Shown here: piece by piece, positions 52,417 through 58,495 of the stretch | Position numbering within the stretch: the stretch's first letter is position 1 | Layout: each line of letters opens with the position of its first letter | Assembly: GCA_963752645.1 (NCBI GenBank) | Contig: CAVVZN010000014.1 | Span: 502,955-566,954 of the forward strand | DNA from: an uncultured Actinomycetota bacterium | GTDB taxonomy: Bacteria > Actinomycetota > Actinomycetes > Frankiales > Frankiaceae | Reading direction: 5' to 3' | Length of the DNA: 64,000 bases | Notes under the pieces: generated by a model | Told to the model about the DNA's origin: nothing | Database searches by the model: none | What the model saw: the letters and a program-made list of their open reading frames with translations, nothing else | Made by a program: the position numbers and the translations under genes

Positions 52417-52481
52417 GCGCTCGCCGCCAGGCCGTTACCCGACCATGGCTCCCCTCTGTGTCATCCCTGAAGGAGCGGGGC

Positions 52482-52890
52482 CGGTCAAGAGGGGCTGCTG
52501 ACCATTCTTTTGATCTTCTCCGCCGGTTTTTGGTCGCGTTGCAGTGCGGTGTCGGGGTCCAGGATCGGCCGGAGGCCGACCGCGTAGCGGCCGTAGGTCC
52601 TGGAGGCCGGCGCCGTGCGCAGCGACGATGTTCAAGGCGGAGAGGCATCAGGGGTGTGGCGGCTCCTGTTCGTGGGCCCGCGTTGTCTGCTCCAGAGCCG
52701 GGGTCCTTCGGCGGTTGCTGAACAAGCCCTGTGGGGGCTGTCCGGGTCATCCCTTCGCCGCGCGGGGCGGCATGGAGTGCTGCGACAGTCGGGGTCGATG
52801 GCCGAGGTCAATCAAGAAGGACGACCACGCCGGAACCGGGGGTCATGACACACACGACCAGCGGCCATCGACCACGGTGGGAGGGGCAGT
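52482..52890 (-). ncRNA. candidate bridge-RNA-encoding right end of the IS1111-like element (speculative)
   Basis: About 410 bp of non-coding DNA between the transposase stop and the left IR. This matches the position where IS1111-subgroup IS110 elements encode their bridge/seek RNA. Confidence 0.2.
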
Positions 52891-53934
52891 TCATGCGGCT
52901 GCCGGCAACGACGCCACAGGAGCGGCGAGGCGGACGTGGCCGTCTCGCAGCGCGTAGAACGACAGCTCGACGAGCTCCCGGGCACCGGCGACGACGCCGA
53001 TGTTGCGGCCCCGGTGGGCGCCGACGCGGTCCCGGACCAGACCGATCCGGCTGGTCTTCGGGGCTCGTTGCACCGCCTCGACGGCGGCCCAGCGGACCAG
53101 CCGGCTGCCTTGCTTGGTGATCCGGCCGCGGTGGACCTTGGTGTCCGACTCATGATGCTTCGGCGTCAGCCCGGCCCAGCTCGCGAGCCGATGCGGGTTG
53201 GGGAACCTGGACACGTCACCGATCTCGGCGACGAACACCGCCCCGAGGACCGGCCCGATGCCGGGCAGCGTCTGCACCGCCCGAAAACCGCGATCGGCGG
53301 CAAGCTGACCGGCGGCGAGCCGGGCGAAGGTGTCGATCTCGAAGTCGAGCTGCTCGATCACCCGCCGGGCCGAGTTGACCCTGGCCCGGCACGCCGGCCT
53401 CAGCTTGAGCCGGTCGAGCAGCTCACAGCCGGCGACGCCGAACAGGTCGGTCATCGGCACCTGAACGCCGGCACCGGCCAGCACGGCATGGACCTGGCAC
53501 TTCACGTTCGACCGCAATCCGACCAGCTTGGCTCGGTGCCGGACCAGCTCTCGCAACTCCCGGGTGGCCGGCGGGGCGATCCACGCCTCCGGCAACCGGC
53601 CCATCCGCAGCAGGTCGGCGAGATCGGCGGCGTCGCGCTCGTCGTTCTTGACCCGCCGGTACTCGAACGCCTTCACACCCAGCGGATGCGCCAGATGCAC
53701 CGACGCTCCCATCGCGGCAAGCGCGTCCGCGGCCCAGTACCAGCCGTACGTCGCCTCGAGTACGACCTCCGGCGACTCGCCGGCCCGGGCCATCACCCGG
53801 CCCAGCAACTCGACGTCGTTGGAGATCCGGATCGTCTCCAACGCCTCCCCGGCCTCGGTCATCCGGACAATCACGGACCGCCGGCGATGCAGATCGATTC
53901 CCACGACCTGCCGACCCTCATACGATGCGCTCAC
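52891..53934 (-). CDS. IS110 family transposase
   Basis: VSASYEGRQVVGIDLHRRRSVIV... is the N-terminal DEDD motif. The C-terminal domain has ...VQTLPGIGPVLGAVFVAEIGDVSRF. GTG start with SD GAAGGAG at 6 nt. Confidence 0.8.
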   Translation of the reverse strand: MSASYEGRQVVGIDLHRRRSVIVRMTEAGEALETIRISNDVELLGRVMARAGESPEVVLEATYGWYWAADALAAMGASVHLAHPLGVKAFEYRRVKNDERDAADLADLLRMGRLPEAWIAPPATRELRELVRHRAKLVGLRSNVKCQVHAVLAGAGVQVPMTDLFGVAGCELLDRLKLRPACRARVNSARRVIEQLDFEIDTFARLAAGQLAADRGFRAVQTLPGIGPVLGAVFVAEIGDVSRFPNPHRLASWAGLTPKHHESDTKVHRGRITKQGSRLVRWAAVEAVQRAPKTSRIGLVRDRVGAHRGRNIGVVAGARELVELSFYALRDGHVRLAAPVASLPAAA

Positions 53935-54058
53935 AGGGGCCTCCTTCAACGTGGGTGGTGAGCAACCCGAGAATCCTCGGACTCTCACGAGAGCGGGAGG
54001 CCCCGCTCCTTCATCGCATCAAGGAGGGCTTATGGGCGGCCACCGATCAGGTTGTGGG

Positions 54059-56615: not shown

Positions 56616-56951
56616 TCACCGAGCGGATTGTCGCGCGGCCAGCAGCAGAGCAGATGAGGCCAGCACGAAGCCGGCACCGGGTGCGAGCGGTCCGACGGCG
56701 TACTTGAACCCGAGGAACCTCCAGAGGATCAGTCCTATGACCAGAGCGGCTACCCCAATGATGAGGTTGATTCGTGCGCCGCGACGCGAGGCAGCCAGTC
56801 GCTCGGGATGGTTGAGAGGCAACTGCCGCAGTCTCGCTGACTCGGCCAAGCTCTGCCTCCCGATCACTCGCTCATCGAGCCGTCGCAGGAATGACATCAC
56901 CGTCGGCTGATGCCCTTCACGTCGACCGCCGACACAATCAAGATCGCGCAT
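56616..56951 (-). CDS. small hypothetical membrane-anchored protein (111 aa)
   Basis: ATG at 56951 preceded by a strong SD GAGGGGAG (reverse complement of the 17-nt motif). Soluble N-terminal region then two TM segments (INLIIGVAALVIGLILW and GFVLASSALLLAA). Confidence 0.4.
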   Translation of the reverse strand: MRDLDCVGGRREGHQPTVMSFLRRLDERVIGRQSLAESARLRQLPLNHPERLAASRRGARINLIIGVAALVIGLILWRFLGFKYAVGPLAPGAGFVLASSALLLAARQSAR

Positions 56952-56968
56952 AGCGGCTCCCCTCTGTG

Positions 56969-58137
56969 TCAAGCGGCGGGTGCGGGGGCCGGGTTAACCT
57001 GTCGCTCGGCGGGTCCGGGAAGTGACTTGTCCGAAGAGTTGGCCGTCGGGGTTGGGTCAGCCGCGCTGGACTTTGTAGCCGCCCCCGAGTGTCCTCCCGG
57101 GCCCGTCCCGACTGCCCGGTCGACGTCGGCGCGGAGTTGTCGGTAGACGACGTCAGAGAGCCGTCGTTTCAGGCAGCGCAGCGCCTCGAGCCGGCTCTTG
57201 CCGGCGGCGATCTTGCGCCGGTAGTAGTCCTGACCGGGGCCGGGGTGCCGGATCTGACTGACGGCAATGATGTGCAGGGCGTGGTTGAGCCGGCGGTTGC
57301 CACCGCGGTTGAGCCGGTGGTGCACGGCGTCGCCGCTGGACGCGTCGATCGGCGCGGTGCCGGTGTAGCTGGCGAAGTGGTGCCGGCTCGGAAACCGGCG
57401 CACGTCACCGACCTCGCCCAGGATGGTCCCGGCGACAACCGGGCCGACGCCGTAGATCTCGGGCAGGCTGGTGCCGTGTTCGTCGAGGACCTCGGCGATC
57501 CGCTTCTTCATCTCCTTGATCCGGGCATCCAGCGCCACCAGGTCGGCGAGGTGCTCGAGCGCGAGCTGCTTGCGAGCCTTGCCAACTGCGTCCCGCGGCC
57601 GCACCGAGGAGAGCAGCTCCTTCGCTTTACGTGCTGGTCAGGCGGGCGGCGGCACCGCCAGGAGTGAGCTCGACGAGCAGCCGGTGCAGCCGGTTCACGG
57701 TCGCAATGCGCTGCTCGACCAGTTCGGTTCGCCGGTCGCAGAGCAGCCGAAGCACGGTGATTGTGTCGTCCTGGCGCACCTCGGCCAGCCGGGTCCCGCG
57801 CAGCCCGGCGACGGCGATCGCATAGGCGTCAGTGTCGTCGGTCTTGCGAGCCGCTGCCGCCACCGAGCGCGCGGACCCGGGCCGAGAGCTTGGCGGGCAC
57901 GTTCAGCACCCGTTCGCCGTCGGCGACCAGCCGCTGCGCCAGGCTCAACCCAACCCCGGCGGCACCCTCGACGGCCCAGACCCGATCCCGATGGGCGGCG
58001 CCGAACCGACGCAGCTCCCGGTAGCCGTCCCGGTCGTTGTCGAACCGCTGCTTGCCCAGCACCCGCTCGCGGTCGTCGAGCACCAGCGCGGTGTTGCTGC
58101 GCTTGTGCGGATCGACCCCGATCACTACCTGGCCCAC
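56969..58137 (-). pseudogene. IS110 family transposase with two frameshifts
   Basis: MGQVVIGVDPHKRSNTALVLD... / ...RKTDDTDAYAIAVAGLRGTRL...VNRLHRLLVELTPGG / ...VRPRDAVGKARKQLALEHL...NRRLNHALHIIAVSQIRHPG...RRLSDVVYRQL. Confidence 0.6.
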
Positions 58138-58495
58138 GAACCCTCCCGTTGTCGTCGTTGGACGGCAGGGAGGGCAGTGCTACTTCGAGCGCAGCAGACC
58201 CCTCTTGAGCCACTCCCGGCCTGACGGTGCCCGGCGGGTCAGCACTCCGTTAGTGGGCCACACGAAGCCGTGGGCAGCCGGATAGCGAGCCTCACCGCCG
58301 AGCACCTCACCCGCAGCCTGGCCGGGCCGCGAGCTGCCCCCAGTGAACAAGTAGCCGGATACCGCGCGCCTCGCGACCCCCTGCTGGCGTCCGAGGGAGT
58401 AACCGACCACGCCGCAGGTCTGTGATGCCACAGCCGGGGCCAACGACCGCGCGCGCTCGGCACTTATGCCGGTGATCCGTCAAGGCGGGGTCGGG
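58138..58495 (-). ncRNA. candidate bridge-RNA-encoding left end (5' leader) of IS110 copy C (speculative)
   Basis: Homologous to the copy-B leader and long enough (~350 bp) for an IS621-type bridge RNA. Confidence 0.2.

What the first reader, a model, noticed from the sequence alone, without database searches (positions are those of the whole stretch)
52464..58495. Three IS110-family elements head-to-tail; one intact with 15-bp IRs, two decayed paralogs
Element A (52464-54015) has terminal-proximal 15-bp inverted repeats (tgaaggagcggggcc) and an intact 347-aa DEDD transposase with a strong SD.

Elements B and C belong to a different but mutually related IS110 subfamily. Their transposases are 60-70% identical at protein level and their ~300-bp leaders are conserved. 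Both are inactivated by frameshifts: one in B, two in C.

All three sit in the same orientation within 6 kb. This suggests target-specific insertion into a common locus rather than random transposition.
Basis: seen in the sequence. Interest (0 to 1): 0.6.

Follow-up and report, generated by a model that had tools for sequence, protein, structure and literature searches.

The report
Three RNA-guided insertion sequences, one nested
Three mobile elements of the RNA-guided IS110 family sit here, and the one intact copy has inserted precisely into the tail of a decayed neighbour at a site that matches the guide RNA it encodes; this is a clear example of a known mechanism, not a new one.

Summary
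The three IS110-family elements are real, and all lie on the minus strand. The layout differs from "head-to-tail".

- **Element A** (54018→52461, 1,558 nt) is an intact IS1111-group element. It has perfect 15-bp subterminal inverted repeats, a 347-aa transposase and a 430-nt 3' non-coding region that encodes a bridge/seek RNA.
- **A lies inside element B.** It sits 14 nt from B's right end: CTTGA^CACAGAGGGGAGCC.
- **B** (55536→54019 plus 52460→52447) and **C** (58356→56955) are two different IS110-group elements, 58% identical at protein level. B has one frameshift and C has two. Their "conserved leaders" are bridge-RNA genes.

Across 59 B/C-type loci and 36 A-type loci, the variable guide segments match each element's own flanks far better than permuted flanks (0 of 10,000 permutations in each family). 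The donor guides covary with the element ends.

A's guides match B's right end at 6/7 and 5/7 positions. The same nesting recurs in Dactylosporangium cerinum, a Rhodococcus opacus plasmid and a soil metagenome.

B and C occupy separate sites 1.4 kb apart, each matching its own guides, so there is no common locus. This is a new member of a known kind, of modest interest.

The parts
52461..54018 (-). Element A: intact IS1111-group insertion sequence, net inserted segment 1,558 nt. TGA occurs at both junctions, so the ends are ambiguous by up to 3 nt.
   Evidence: Homology with a 99.4% copy (L001) and with 70-75% relatives starts and stops here. Removing it restores the B/C-type right-end consensus CTTGACACAGAGGGGAGCC.
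53999..54013 (-). A left subterminal inverted repeat, TGAAGGAGCGGGGCC
   Evidence: Exact match; conserved in the family.
52468..52482 (-). A right subterminal inverted repeat, GGCCCCGCTCCTTCA
   Evidence: Exact inverted copy; conserved in the family.
52891..53934 (-). A transposase gene, 347 aa, intact
   Evidence: Pfam PF01548 + PF02371. NCBIfam NF033542 scores 204 bits against a cut-off of 140. All 9 nt differences from copy L001 are synonymous.
52740..52875 (-). A bridge/seek RNA core in the 3' non-coding region. Right-target guide TGTGTGT at 52848-52854, left-target guide TCCTTCT at 52815-52821, donor guide AGGGATGA at 52747-52754.
   Evidence: Family alignment and guide-flank statistics. 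Consensus fold has 13 of 30 compensated pairs. The donor guide equals the element's right end in 43 of 44 loci.
54019..55536 (-). Element B, main part (left end to the A insertion point): IS110-group element with a frameshifted transposase
   Evidence: Left end GGCTACTT defined by collapsed-repeat contigs and 59 loci. 85% identical to L005 over its full length.
52447..52460 (-). Element B, last 14 nt of its right end (CACAGAGGGGAGCC), separated from the rest by A
   Evidence: Exact copy of C's right end. Family consensus right end.
54059..55302 (-). B transposase pseudogene; 1-nt deletion at 54438/54437
   Evidence: Alignment to C. The repaired 414-aa protein is 86% identical over 100% of intact 412-416-aa proteins.
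55340..55510 (-). B bridge RNA gene. Left-target guide CCACCATC at 55459-55466 (+GGC at 55456-55458), right-target guide AACCAT at 55422-55427 (+GGC), donor guides CAAGAGGGG at 55374-55382 and CGAAGTAGC at 55354-55362.
   Evidence: Leader alignment. Consensus fold has 20 of 42 compensated pairs. Own flanks score 13/16, higher than all 58 other loci.
56955..58356 (-). Element C: IS110-group element, 1,402 nt, with a twice-frameshifted transposase
   Evidence: Ends match the family consensus. The length matches the ~1.40-kb class of collapsed-repeat contigs.
56969..58137 (-). C transposase pseudogene; 1-nt insertions near 57849 and 57635
   Evidence: The repaired 388-aa protein aligns end to end with 384-aa proteins at 60% identity.
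58160..58330 (-). C bridge RNA gene. Left-target guide GCTATCC at 58280-58286 (+GGC), degenerate right-target guide at 58246-58255, donor guides at 58199-58207 and 58179-58187.
   Evidence: Substitutions at otherwise invariant positions (GGCCC for GGCTC, CGGA for TGGC). Own flanks score 11/16, tied by 1 of 58 loci.
55537..55547 (-). B left flank ACCCGACCATC, the target left half
   Evidence: Matches B's left-target guide. Forms a perfect 10-bp palindrome with 52437-52446.
52437..52446 (-). B right flank ATGGTCGGGT, the target right half, 21 nt past the stop of the convergent glyoxalase-like gene
55537..56954 (.). 1,418-nt host spacer between C and B. G+C about 0.66; contains only weak small membrane-protein ORFs.

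Best explanation
The interval holds three separate RNA-guided (bridge/seek RNA) insertion sequences of the IS110 family, produced by at least three independent, guide-directed insertions.

B and C are two different IS110-group elements, each encoding a bridge RNA in its 5' leader. Each integrated at its own short, roughly palindromic chromosomal site. One loop of its RNA specifies that site, and the other loop specifies the element's own ends. Both have since lost their transposase reading frames.

A is an intact IS1111-group element with subterminal inverted repeats and a guide RNA encoded 3' of the transposase. It then integrated into B, between CTTGA and CACAGAGGGGAGCC, 14 nt from B's right end. 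The target guides in its RNA are complementary to that conserved end sequence.

Shown here:
- the element anatomy and ends;
- guide-to-flank and guide-to-end matching and covariation across the families;
- recurrence of the nested junction in other genomes.

Inferred:
- that the RNAs are expressed and bound by the transposase;
- that A is currently active;
- that B and C are dead.
For: **Family membership.**
- Pfam DEDD_Tnp_IS110 + Transposase_20 hits in all three.
- NCBIfam 'IS110 family RNA-guided transposase' scores 204 and 183 bits against a cut-off of 140.
- Similarity to the solved ISCro4 and IS621 transposases, E about 2e-14.

**Element ends.**
- Collapsed-repeat contigs of 1.40-1.43 kb begin at GGCTACTT and end at TTGACACAGAGGGG[AT]GCC.
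- 59 non-redundant loci share these ends with different flanks.
- A-type ends are defined in about 45 loci.

**Nesting.**
- GACACAGAGGGGAGCC occurs exactly twice, after C and after A.
- Deleting A restores B's right end.

**Guides, B/C type.**
- Own-flank identity is 5.5 + 4.9 of 8 + 8, against 4.1 + 3.8 for permuted pairs; 0 of 10,000 permutations reach the observed value.
- B scores 13/16 on its own flanks, against a maximum of 12 among 58 other loci.
- Donor guides show compensatory changes with the left end (GGCATCTT/GAAGATGC, GGCTTCTT/AAGAAGC, GGCTAGTT/GAACTAGC, GGCTACAT/AATGTAGC, GGCTACCT/AAGGTAGC) and with the right end (AGAAGGG, AAAGGGG).
- The consensus fold is a 5' stem-loop plus two internal-loop domains, with 20 of 42 pairs compensated.

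**Guides, A type.**
- Own-flank identity is 5.3/7 and 3.9/7, against 3.7 and 2.8 for permuted pairs; 0 of 10,000 permutations.
- The donor guide AGG[G/A]ATGA equals the element's right end in 43 of 44 loci.
- 13 of 30 pairs in the fold are compensated.
- In the window's A, rc(RTG) is ACACACA against flank ACACAGA, and the LTG is TCCTTCT against CCCTCCT.

**Recurrence of an A-type element at CTTGA^CACAGA of an IS110-group right end.** In each case the right-target guide matches.
- L047, Dactylosporangium cerinum
- L134, soil metagenome
- L170, Rhodococcus opacus plasmid
- L001, left junction only

**Selection on A.** It differs from the L001 copy by 9 nt in the transposase gene, all synonymous.

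**Agreement with the literature.**
- IS1111 elements have 7-17-bp subterminal repeats and the RNA in the right end; IS110 elements have it in the left end (PMC11208160).
- The order of the guides is reversed between the two groups (PMC11187229).
Against: - There are no expression or activity data.
- A's left-target guide matches only 5 of 7 positions.
- The near-identical copy L001 sits after a left flank (GCCGCCGCTTGA) that matches less well, so the left half tolerates mismatches or contributes little.
- C's right-target guide matches its flank poorly (4/8, or 7/9 with an indel).
- The exact crossover point cannot be placed, because TGA (for A) and GGC/GCC (for B and C) occur in both partners.
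- The three indels could be assembly errors.
- No Rfam family matched either RNA.
Confidence: 0.85

Rival explanations
1. One reading: three independent elements landed side by side, head to tail, because a chromosomal locus here is a shared hot-spot target.
For: All three lie within 5.9 kb in one orientation. The region has lower G+C than its surroundings, and a tyrosine recombinase gene lies 4 kb away, so it may be a tolerant, variable region.
Against: - A's flanks are B's own right end, not host DNA.
- B's target (ACCCGACCATC^ATGGTCGGGT) and C's target (GCGGTATCC^GCTATGCGCG) differ, and each matches a different guide.
- The same A-in-IS110-end junction occurs in unrelated genomes.
Confidence: 0.1
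2. B and C are not pseudogenes. The three single-base indels are sequencing or assembly errors, and all three elements are active.
For: - Each lesion is a single-base indel.
- After repair, both proteins are full length with conserved motifs.
- The ends of B and C and B's guide scaffold are intact.
Against: - None of the indels lies in a homopolymer run.
- C also carries substitutions at otherwise invariant bridge-RNA positions.
- B's right end is split by 1.56 kb of A whatever the reading frame.
- A, in the same assembly, has no lesion, and its 9 differences from L001 are all synonymous.
Confidence: 0.15
3. A+B, or the whole interval, is one known composite element that moves as a unit.
For: - B's left end and its last 14 nt, the part recognised by B's donor guide, are both intact. 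B::A (3,090 nt) could in principle be mobilised in trans by a B-type enzyme.
- The A-in-B arrangement recurs elsewhere.
Against: - A-type and B/C-type elements are each found alone in dozens of loci.
- In the recurrent cases the partners are only 58-73% related and the flanks differ, which indicates repeated independent insertion rather than spread of one composite.
- B and C share no cargo-flanking logic.
Confidence: 0.05
4. The frameshifts are programmed, i.e. recoding is used to make the transposase.
For: Some IS families (IS1, IS3) use -1 frameshifting; this rests on general knowledge.
Against: - The shifts are at three different positions and in different directions in B and C.
- Close relatives encode single uninterrupted ORFs of 412-416 and 384 aa.
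- There is no slippery motif at the sites.
Confidence: 0.01

Closest known systems
IS1111 group of the IS110 family (for example ISEc11, ISKpn4, ISPa11; seekRNA/bridge RNA elements)
   Same: Element A has:
- a DEDD transposase;
- perfect 15-bp subterminal inverted repeats;
- short terminal extensions;
- a long non-coding region downstream of the gene;
[quoted passage not shown]
- orientation-specific insertion without a true duplication.
These are the features described in PMC11187229 and PMC11208160.
   Different: It is an unnamed actinobacterial lineage; no ISfinder name could be assigned here. Its target is the right end of IS110-group elements rather than REP, attC or a linear chromosomal site.
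[quoted passage not shown]
   Same: These are IS110/IS1111-family elements whose specific target is the end of another mobile element. This rests on the titles of Muller et al. 2001 and Partridge & Hall 2003, as cited.
   Different: - Those targets are the terminal inverted repeats of DDE-type elements in Proteobacteria.
- Here the target is the non-repeat right end of another bridge-RNA element. That end carries a TTGACA motif and lies next to the sequence read by the host element's own donor guide.
- The hosts here are Actinomycetota.
IS621 / IS110-group bridge-RNA elements
   Same: B and C have:
- a long 5' leader that folds into a 5' stem-loop plus target-binding and donor-binding loops;
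- guides matching both flanks and both element ends;
- a short right end containing a -35-like TTGACA.
   Different: - The proteins are only distantly related.
- No Rfam model matched the RNA.
- The transposases carry a 60-110-aa C-terminal tail (GPGGH...SSAA...SLPGP) that IS621 lacks.
- Both copies here are frameshifted.
Actinobacterial IS110-family elements such as IS900/IS901/IS116 (recalled from memory, not tested)
   Same: They are reported to insert in one orientation next to sequences that look like a ribosome-binding site plus ATG. B/C-type right ends read AGAGGGGAGCC, and the following flank often begins ATG.
   Different: The comparison here shows that the RBS-like AGAGGGGAGCC belongs to the element, not the target. 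No sequence comparison with IS900 was run.

Membership tests
IS110 family (DEDD RNA-guided transposases) | N-terminal DEDD/RuvC-like domain plus C-terminal Tnp domain | tested here: met
   PF01548 + PF02371 in A, B and across the three fragments of C. NF033542 scores 204 bits (A) and 183 bits (repaired B) against a cut-off of 140.
IS110 family (DEDD RNA-guided transposases) | Catalytic D-E-D-D and serine residues present | tested here: inconclusive
   The motifs GIDLH / LEAT / NDERDAAD / HHESD (A) and GMDPH ... DASSGD (B, C) are readable in the translations. The alignment to solved ISCro4 covers the Glu and Ser stretches. No full residue-by-residue mapping was done.
IS1111 group (element A) | Subterminal inverted repeats of 7-17 bp | tested here: met
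   15/15 bp at 53999-54013 and 52468-52482.
IS1111 group (element A) | Long non-coding region downstream of the transposase gene, short one upstream | tested here: met
   430 nt downstream against 84 nt upstream.
IS1111 group (element A) | Terminal extensions beyond the repeats (7 bp left, 3 bp right by the convention of PMC11187229) | tested here: inconclusive
   Family-conserved sequence extends TGATGCGA(T) to the left and AGG[GA]ATGA to the right of the repeats. TGA is shared with the target, so the extension lengths depend on where it is assigned.
IS1111 group (element A) | RNA from the non-coding region carries two short segments matching the two target halves, top-strand complement first | tested here: met
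   The scaffold is GGTCG-[7 nt]-CATGACC ... GGTCG-[7 nt]-TGATTGA. Own flanks beat permuted flanks in 10,000 of 10,000 permutations.
IS1111 group (element A) | The RNA is expressed, binds the transposase and is required for movement | not testable with these tools
   Needs RNA sequencing, pull-down and a transposition assay.
IS110 group / bridge-RNA elements (B, C) | Long left non-coding end, short right end, no long subterminal repeats | tested here: met
   Leaders are 234 and 219 nt. Right ends are 54 and 14 nt after the stop codon.
IS110 group / bridge-RNA elements (B, C) | Leader folds into a 5' stem-loop plus two internal-loop domains supported by covariation | tested here: met
   RNAalifold on 57 sequences gives 42 pairs, 20 with compensatory changes.
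IS110 group / bridge-RNA elements (B, C) | Target loop matches both flanks; donor loop matches both element ends | tested here: met
   C's right-target guide is degenerate.
IS110 group / bridge-RNA elements (B, C) | Match to a curated RNA family | tested here: not met
   No Rfam 15 family reached E <= 1 on the leaders or on A's 3' region. This is not a defining feature of the IS family.
Composite transposon | Two copies of the same IS bracketing cargo and moving as a unit | tested here: not met
   B and C are different elements, 58% identical at protein level. The 1.4-kb spacer has only weak ORFs.
Named ISfinder element | At least 95% DNA identity to a catalogued IS | not testable with these tools
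   ISfinder is not available. The best annotated relatives in plasmids are 70-71% identical and are labelled only 'IS110 family transposase'.

The most novel reading that the evidence does not exclude
A clade of actinobacterial IS1111-group elements has guide RNAs evolved to home in on the conserved right terminus of unrelated IS110-group elements, at CTTGA^CACAGAG. This site lies inside the -35-like TTGACA and immediately next to the sequence read by the host element's own donor guide. On this reading, one RNA-guided IS systematically uses, and may disable, another RNA-guided IS as a safe landing pad. The supporting evidence is the set of five occurrences found here, with four different right-target guide sequences that all converge on CACAGAG. 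This would be more than coincidence.
Probability: 0.5. Interest if true: 0.45.

Novelty: new member of a known kind. Interest (0 to 1): 0.3.

Why it matters
The result explains the structure of this IS cluster in terms of a known mechanism, and it corrects the element boundaries that an annotator would draw.

It also gives natural, sequence-level examples of bridge/seek-RNA programming in Actinomycetota. Both architectures, 5'-encoded and 3'-encoded guide RNA, sit side by side, with readable guide-target pairs.

The recurrent insertion of an IS1111-type element into the right end of IS110-type elements adds a target class to the family's known repertoire of REP, attC and transposon inverted repeats. 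It may be of minor use for IS annotation pipelines and for studies of competition between mobile elements. It does not open a new mechanism.

Tried and rejected
- **Rfam scan** of 50-61 kb at E <= 1. There was no bridge-RNA family. The only hits were sub-threshold matches to mycobacterial sRNA models, antisense to the transposase tails.
- **A fourth IS remnant upstream of C (58357-58520).** By eye it resembles B's 3' tail, but blastn-short found no significant match to B, so I dropped the idea.
- **A REP-like repeat family as the common target of B and C.** The motifs GCGTGGTCGGTTAC, TGACGGATCACCGGC and CATAAGTGCCGAGCGCGC are not repeated in the window beyond chance.
- **Terminal inverted repeats of B.** The 10-bp palindrome flanking B is target-derived. 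Identical IS copies in one genome (L020, L022, L025) have different flanks.
- **Plasmid search with the chimeric A/B right junction**. There was no full-length junction match. Following the best partial hit did reveal the R. opacus case.
- **Source organism.** The cluster look-up returned no name, and the exact-protein look-up returned only a 1.58-kb Logan contig.
- **Other IS110-type copies in the window.** None were found.
- **Programmed frameshifting and a composite element.** Both were considered and rejected; see the rival explanations.
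Full report
**What is in the sequence**

The interval lies in high-G+C (about 0.70) DNA. All three transposase genes read on the minus strand.

- Pfam finds DEDD_Tnp_IS110 plus Transposase_20 in the 347/365-aa ORF at 52891-53988 (A).
- It finds the same pair in the 435-aa ORF at 54019-55326 (B, N-terminal 290 aa in frame).
- It finds them spread over three ORF fragments at 57829-58137, 57627-57863 and 56969-57604 (C).
- NCBIfam places A and a repaired B in NF033542, 'IS110 family RNA-guided transposase', at 204 and 183 bits against a cut-off of 140.
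- The nearest solved structures are the ISCro4 and IS621 transposases.
- The 15-nt inverted repeat reported for A is exact, at 53999-54013 and 52468-52482.
- No other IS110-type gene is present in the window.

**Boundaries of A**

A 99.4%-identical copy on a Logan contig (L001) and 70-75% relatives (L002-L004, then 80 metagenome loci) share sequence with the window only between about 54021 and 52461.

- The family's left end reads (C/T)TGATGCGAT-GAAGGAGCGGGGCC.
- The right end reads GGCCCCGCTCCTTC-AGG(G/A)ATGA.
- TGA is present at both junctions, so the net insert is 1,558 nt (54018→52461), with a 3-nt ambiguity.
- A has 84 nt upstream of its GTG start and 430 nt downstream of its stop.
- With the perfect 15-bp subterminal repeats, this is the IS1111-group layout described by Siddiquee et al. 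and Durrant et al..
- The nine differences between the window's A and L001 within the transposase gene are all synonymous. This argues that the gene is under purifying selection.

**Boundaries of B and C, and the nesting**

The 16-mer GACACAGAGGGGAGCC occurs exactly twice in the window: immediately after C's stop codon (56955-56970) and immediately after A (52447-52462).

Relatives of B fetched by exact-protein look-up (L005-L009) and by a genome scan (L010-L089) all end in CTTGACACAGAGGGG(A/T)GCC. The genome-scan loci come from Micromonospora, Actinoplanes, Dactylosporangium, Nocardia, Kineococcus, Motilibacter and others.

Several short-read assemblies contain the element as a collapsed-repeat contig of 1.40-1.43 kb. 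These contigs begin at (TC)GGCTACTT and end at that motif, which fixes the ends.

- C is therefore 58356→56955 (1,402 nt).
- B is 55536→54019 plus 52460→52447 (1,532 nt). A is inserted between ...CCCTCCTTGA and CACAGAGGGGAGCC, 14 nt from B's right end.
- A is inside B, not next to it.
- The reported interval misses B's last 14 nt and overshoots C's left end by 139 nt.

**The frameshifts**

Alignment of B with C and with intact relatives shows the following.

- B has a 1-nt deletion at 54438/54437 (CACA^CATGG, where relatives have CACATCATG).
- C has 1-nt insertions near 57849 and near 57635.
- Repairing them gives a 414-aa B protein, 86% identical over its whole length to intact 412-416-aa proteins.
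- It gives a 388-aa C protein that aligns end to end with 384-aa proteins at 60% identity.
- B and C are 58% identical to each other. A is about 30% identical to B over 161 aa.
- None of the indels lies in a homopolymer run.
- Their positions and signs differ, and relatives have single ORFs, so programmed frameshifting is excluded.
- Sequencing error cannot be excluded without reads.

**What the 'conserved leaders' are**

An alignment of 59 non-redundant leaders shows a highly conserved scaffold interrupted by short variable segments.

- The nucleotides just 5' of GGCTGCCC have the same sequence as the element's left flank plus GGC.
- The nucleotides 5' of TGGC are the reverse complement of GCC plus the right flank.
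- Identity of these segments to the element's own flanks averages 5.5 + 4.9 of 8 + 8, against 4.1 + 3.8 for other elements' flanks. None of 10,000 permutations reaches the observed value.
- A second loop carries CTCAAGAGGGG (the same sense as the right end, ACAGAGGGG) and CGAAGTAGC (the reverse complement of the left end, GCTACTT).
- Where the ends differ between lineages, these segments differ in the compensating way:

| Element end | Matching guide segment |
|---|---|
| GGCATCTT | GAAGATGC |
| GGCTTCTT | AAGAAGC |
| GGCTAGTT | GAACTAGC |
| GGCTACAT | AATGTAGC |
| GGCTACCT | AAGGTAGC |
| AGAAGGG (right end) | AGAAGGG |
| AAAGGGG (right end) | AAAGGGG |

- RNAalifold gives a 5' stem-loop followed by two internal-loop domains, with compensatory changes in 20 of 42 pairs.
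- This is the bridge-RNA architecture of IS621-type elements. The bottom-strand match comes first, as reported for the IS110 group.

In the window:

- B's guides (CCACCATC|GGC and rc GCC|ATGGTTGAG) fit its flanks (CCGACCATC|GGC and GCC|ATGGTCGGG) better than the flanks of any of 58 other loci (13/16).
- C's left guide (GCTATCC|GGC) fits its flank (GGTATCC|GGC).
- C's right guide is degenerate and carries substitutions at otherwise invariant scaffold positions, consistent with decay.
- B's two flanks form a perfect 10-bp palindrome (ACCCGACCAT / ATGGTCGGGT), 21 nt past the stop of a convergent glyoxalase-like gene.
- Palindromic targets are general in this family, because the two target guides are near-identical in sequence.

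**A's guide RNA**

The 3' non-coding regions of A-type elements share this scaffold:

GGTCG-[7 nt]-CATGACC ... hairpin ... GGTCG-[7 nt]-TGATTGA ... hairpin ... CGAAGG(G/A)ATGAC

- The reverse complement of the first variable heptamer equals the right flank. Own-flank identity is 5.3/7, against 3.7/7 for permuted flanks.
- The second heptamer equals the left flank (3.9 against 2.8). None of 10,000 permutations reaches the observed value.
- The segment AGG(G/A)ATGA equals the last 8 nt of the element in 43 of 44 loci. The G/A polymorphism is perfectly matched, 23 G/G and 20 A/A.
- Thirteen of 30 predicted pairs show compensatory changes.
- The top-strand complement comes first, as reported for IS1111-type seekRNAs.
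- In the window, rc(TGTGTGT) = ACACACA against flank ACACAGA (6/7), and TCCTTCT against CCCTCCT (5/7).
- A's target is therefore B's right-end sequence.

**Recurrence**

The same junction, an A-type element between CTTGA and CACAGA(G) at the right end of an IS110-group element, was found in these places:

| Locus | Source | Element and guide |
|---|---|---|
| L047 | Dactylosporangium cerinum | 1,529-nt element with an intact ORF; rc guide CACAGAA |
| L134 | soil metagenome contig | rc guide ACACAGG |
| L170 | Rhodococcus opacus plasmid pRop44186_a | rc guide ACACAGAG; host element of a different IS110 subfamily |
| L001 | Logan contig | left junction only |

- The nested elements are only about 70-75% identical to A at DNA level, and their guides differ while converging on the same target.
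- Most other A-type relatives target a different sequence, CTC-TGA-CCTGCGG.
- Targeting of another mobile element's end by this family has precedents. IS1383 targets the IS1384 inverted repeats, and IS4321/IS5075 target Tn21-family inverted repeats (references).

**How it most likely came about**

1. B and C, two distinct IS110-group elements, each integrated at a site specified by its own bridge RNA. The sites are 1,418 nt apart, in a region of slightly lower G+C that also holds a tyrosine recombinase gene at 62328-63233.
2. A integrated into B's right end under the direction of its own RNA. The order of A's insertion relative to the frameshifts is unknown.
3. A's insertion splits B's TTGACA motif. 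That motif is the likely -35 of the junction promoter formed in the circular intermediate; this is an inference.
4. The 14 nt read by B's donor guide stay attached to the flank. B::A might therefore still be mobilisable in trans, which is speculative.

Expression of the RNAs, the activity of A and the inactivity of B and C are all inferred, not shown.

**Verdict**

Everything fits the known IS110/IS1111 bridge/seek-RNA mechanism. The elements are unnamed members of known groups. The only mildly new point is the recurrent IS1111-type targeting of IS110-type right ends in Actinomycetota.

Noticed in passing
window 54165-54272 and 57003-57110 (minus strand; Rfam hits on the plus strand at 54182-54272 and 57020-57115): The roughly 100-nt stretch encoding the conserved C-terminal tail of the B/C-type transposases (GPGGH...SSAA...SLPGP) gives sub-threshold Rfam hits to the Mycobacterium sRNAs ncrMT1302 (35 bits against a gathering score of 45) and Ms_IGR-2. 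Across 44 relatives a nested-helix structure is 96.7% paired. Two pairs covary, A-U/G-C at 28:16 with none broken and G-C/A-U at 27:14, and the G-U pairs favour the sense strand. This may be a structured RNA or DNA element inside the coding region. Those mycobacterial 'sRNAs' may be IS110 remnants.
   Followed up: partly
window 58357-58500 (minus strand), just upstream of C's left end: This stretch contains a 15-nt exact match (TGACGGATCACCGGC, 58468-58482) and a 21-nt, 95% match (58398-58418) to sequences flanking the closest B relative on metagenome contig L005. CATAAGTGCC..GCGCGC is also shared with the left flanks of B and L005. The motifs are not repeated elsewhere in the window. Their origin is unexplained.
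   Followed up: partly
L081, L062, L076, L064 (right flanks): Several B/C-type elements are followed directly by TACTT(G/A)..., the start of a left end. In L081 the flank repeats the element's own left end, TACTTGTTGAATTC. This suggests tandem copies, insertion into another copy's left end, or captured right-end/left-end circle junctions.
   Followed up: no
L003 2620-2919 and L004 2218-2517: A 300-nt partial copy of the A-type left end sits immediately upstream of the complete element, as a tandem partial duplication.
   Followed up: no
L090, L109, L110, L113, L117, L128, L136, L149-L152, L156-L159, L162 and others: Most A-type relatives share one guide (rc ACCTGCA). They sit in a recurring target ...C(T/C)TC-TGA-CCTGCGG(AAAC...) of unknown nature. 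CCTGCGGCGTGGTCGG also occurs upstream of C at about 58405-58420.
   Followed up: no
B/C-type leaders, for example L057 at about 1939 and L061 at about 1936; window 55347-55360: The 3' half of the B/C-type donor loop (GAAGTAGCGGTGCC) differs by only 2 of 14 nt from A's subterminal inverted repeat (GAAGGAGCGGGGCC). This could be chance, or a trace of the proposed common origin of donor-loop stems and IS1111 subterminal repeats.
   Followed up: no
window 62328-63233 (+) and 60500-62500: A phage-integrase-family tyrosine recombinase gene (E = 4e-26) lies 4 kb from the IS cluster, next to a stretch with G+C about 0.645 against about 0.71 elsewhere. The IS cluster may sit in or beside a genomic island.
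   Followed up: no
window 55644-55889 (+), 56197-56409 (+), 56616-56897 (-): These are small ORFs in the spacer between C and B. They have predicted membrane-like sequences, weak Pfam hints (SLATT_1 at E = 0.0075, DUF5708 at E = 0.0018) and third-position G+C of only 0.70-0.76, against 0.85-0.94 for neighbouring genes. Their coding status is uncertain.
   Followed up: partly
L170 1900-2020 (R. opacus plasmid) and L001 1-110: The host element of these two A-type insertions is a different IS110 subfamily, with C-terminus ...LVGILHGCL..YDE.TAW.... Its right end also reads GC(G/C)GCTTGA^CACAGA. The CTTGACACAGA motif therefore seems to be shared by several actinobacterial IS110-group lineages.
   Followed up: partly
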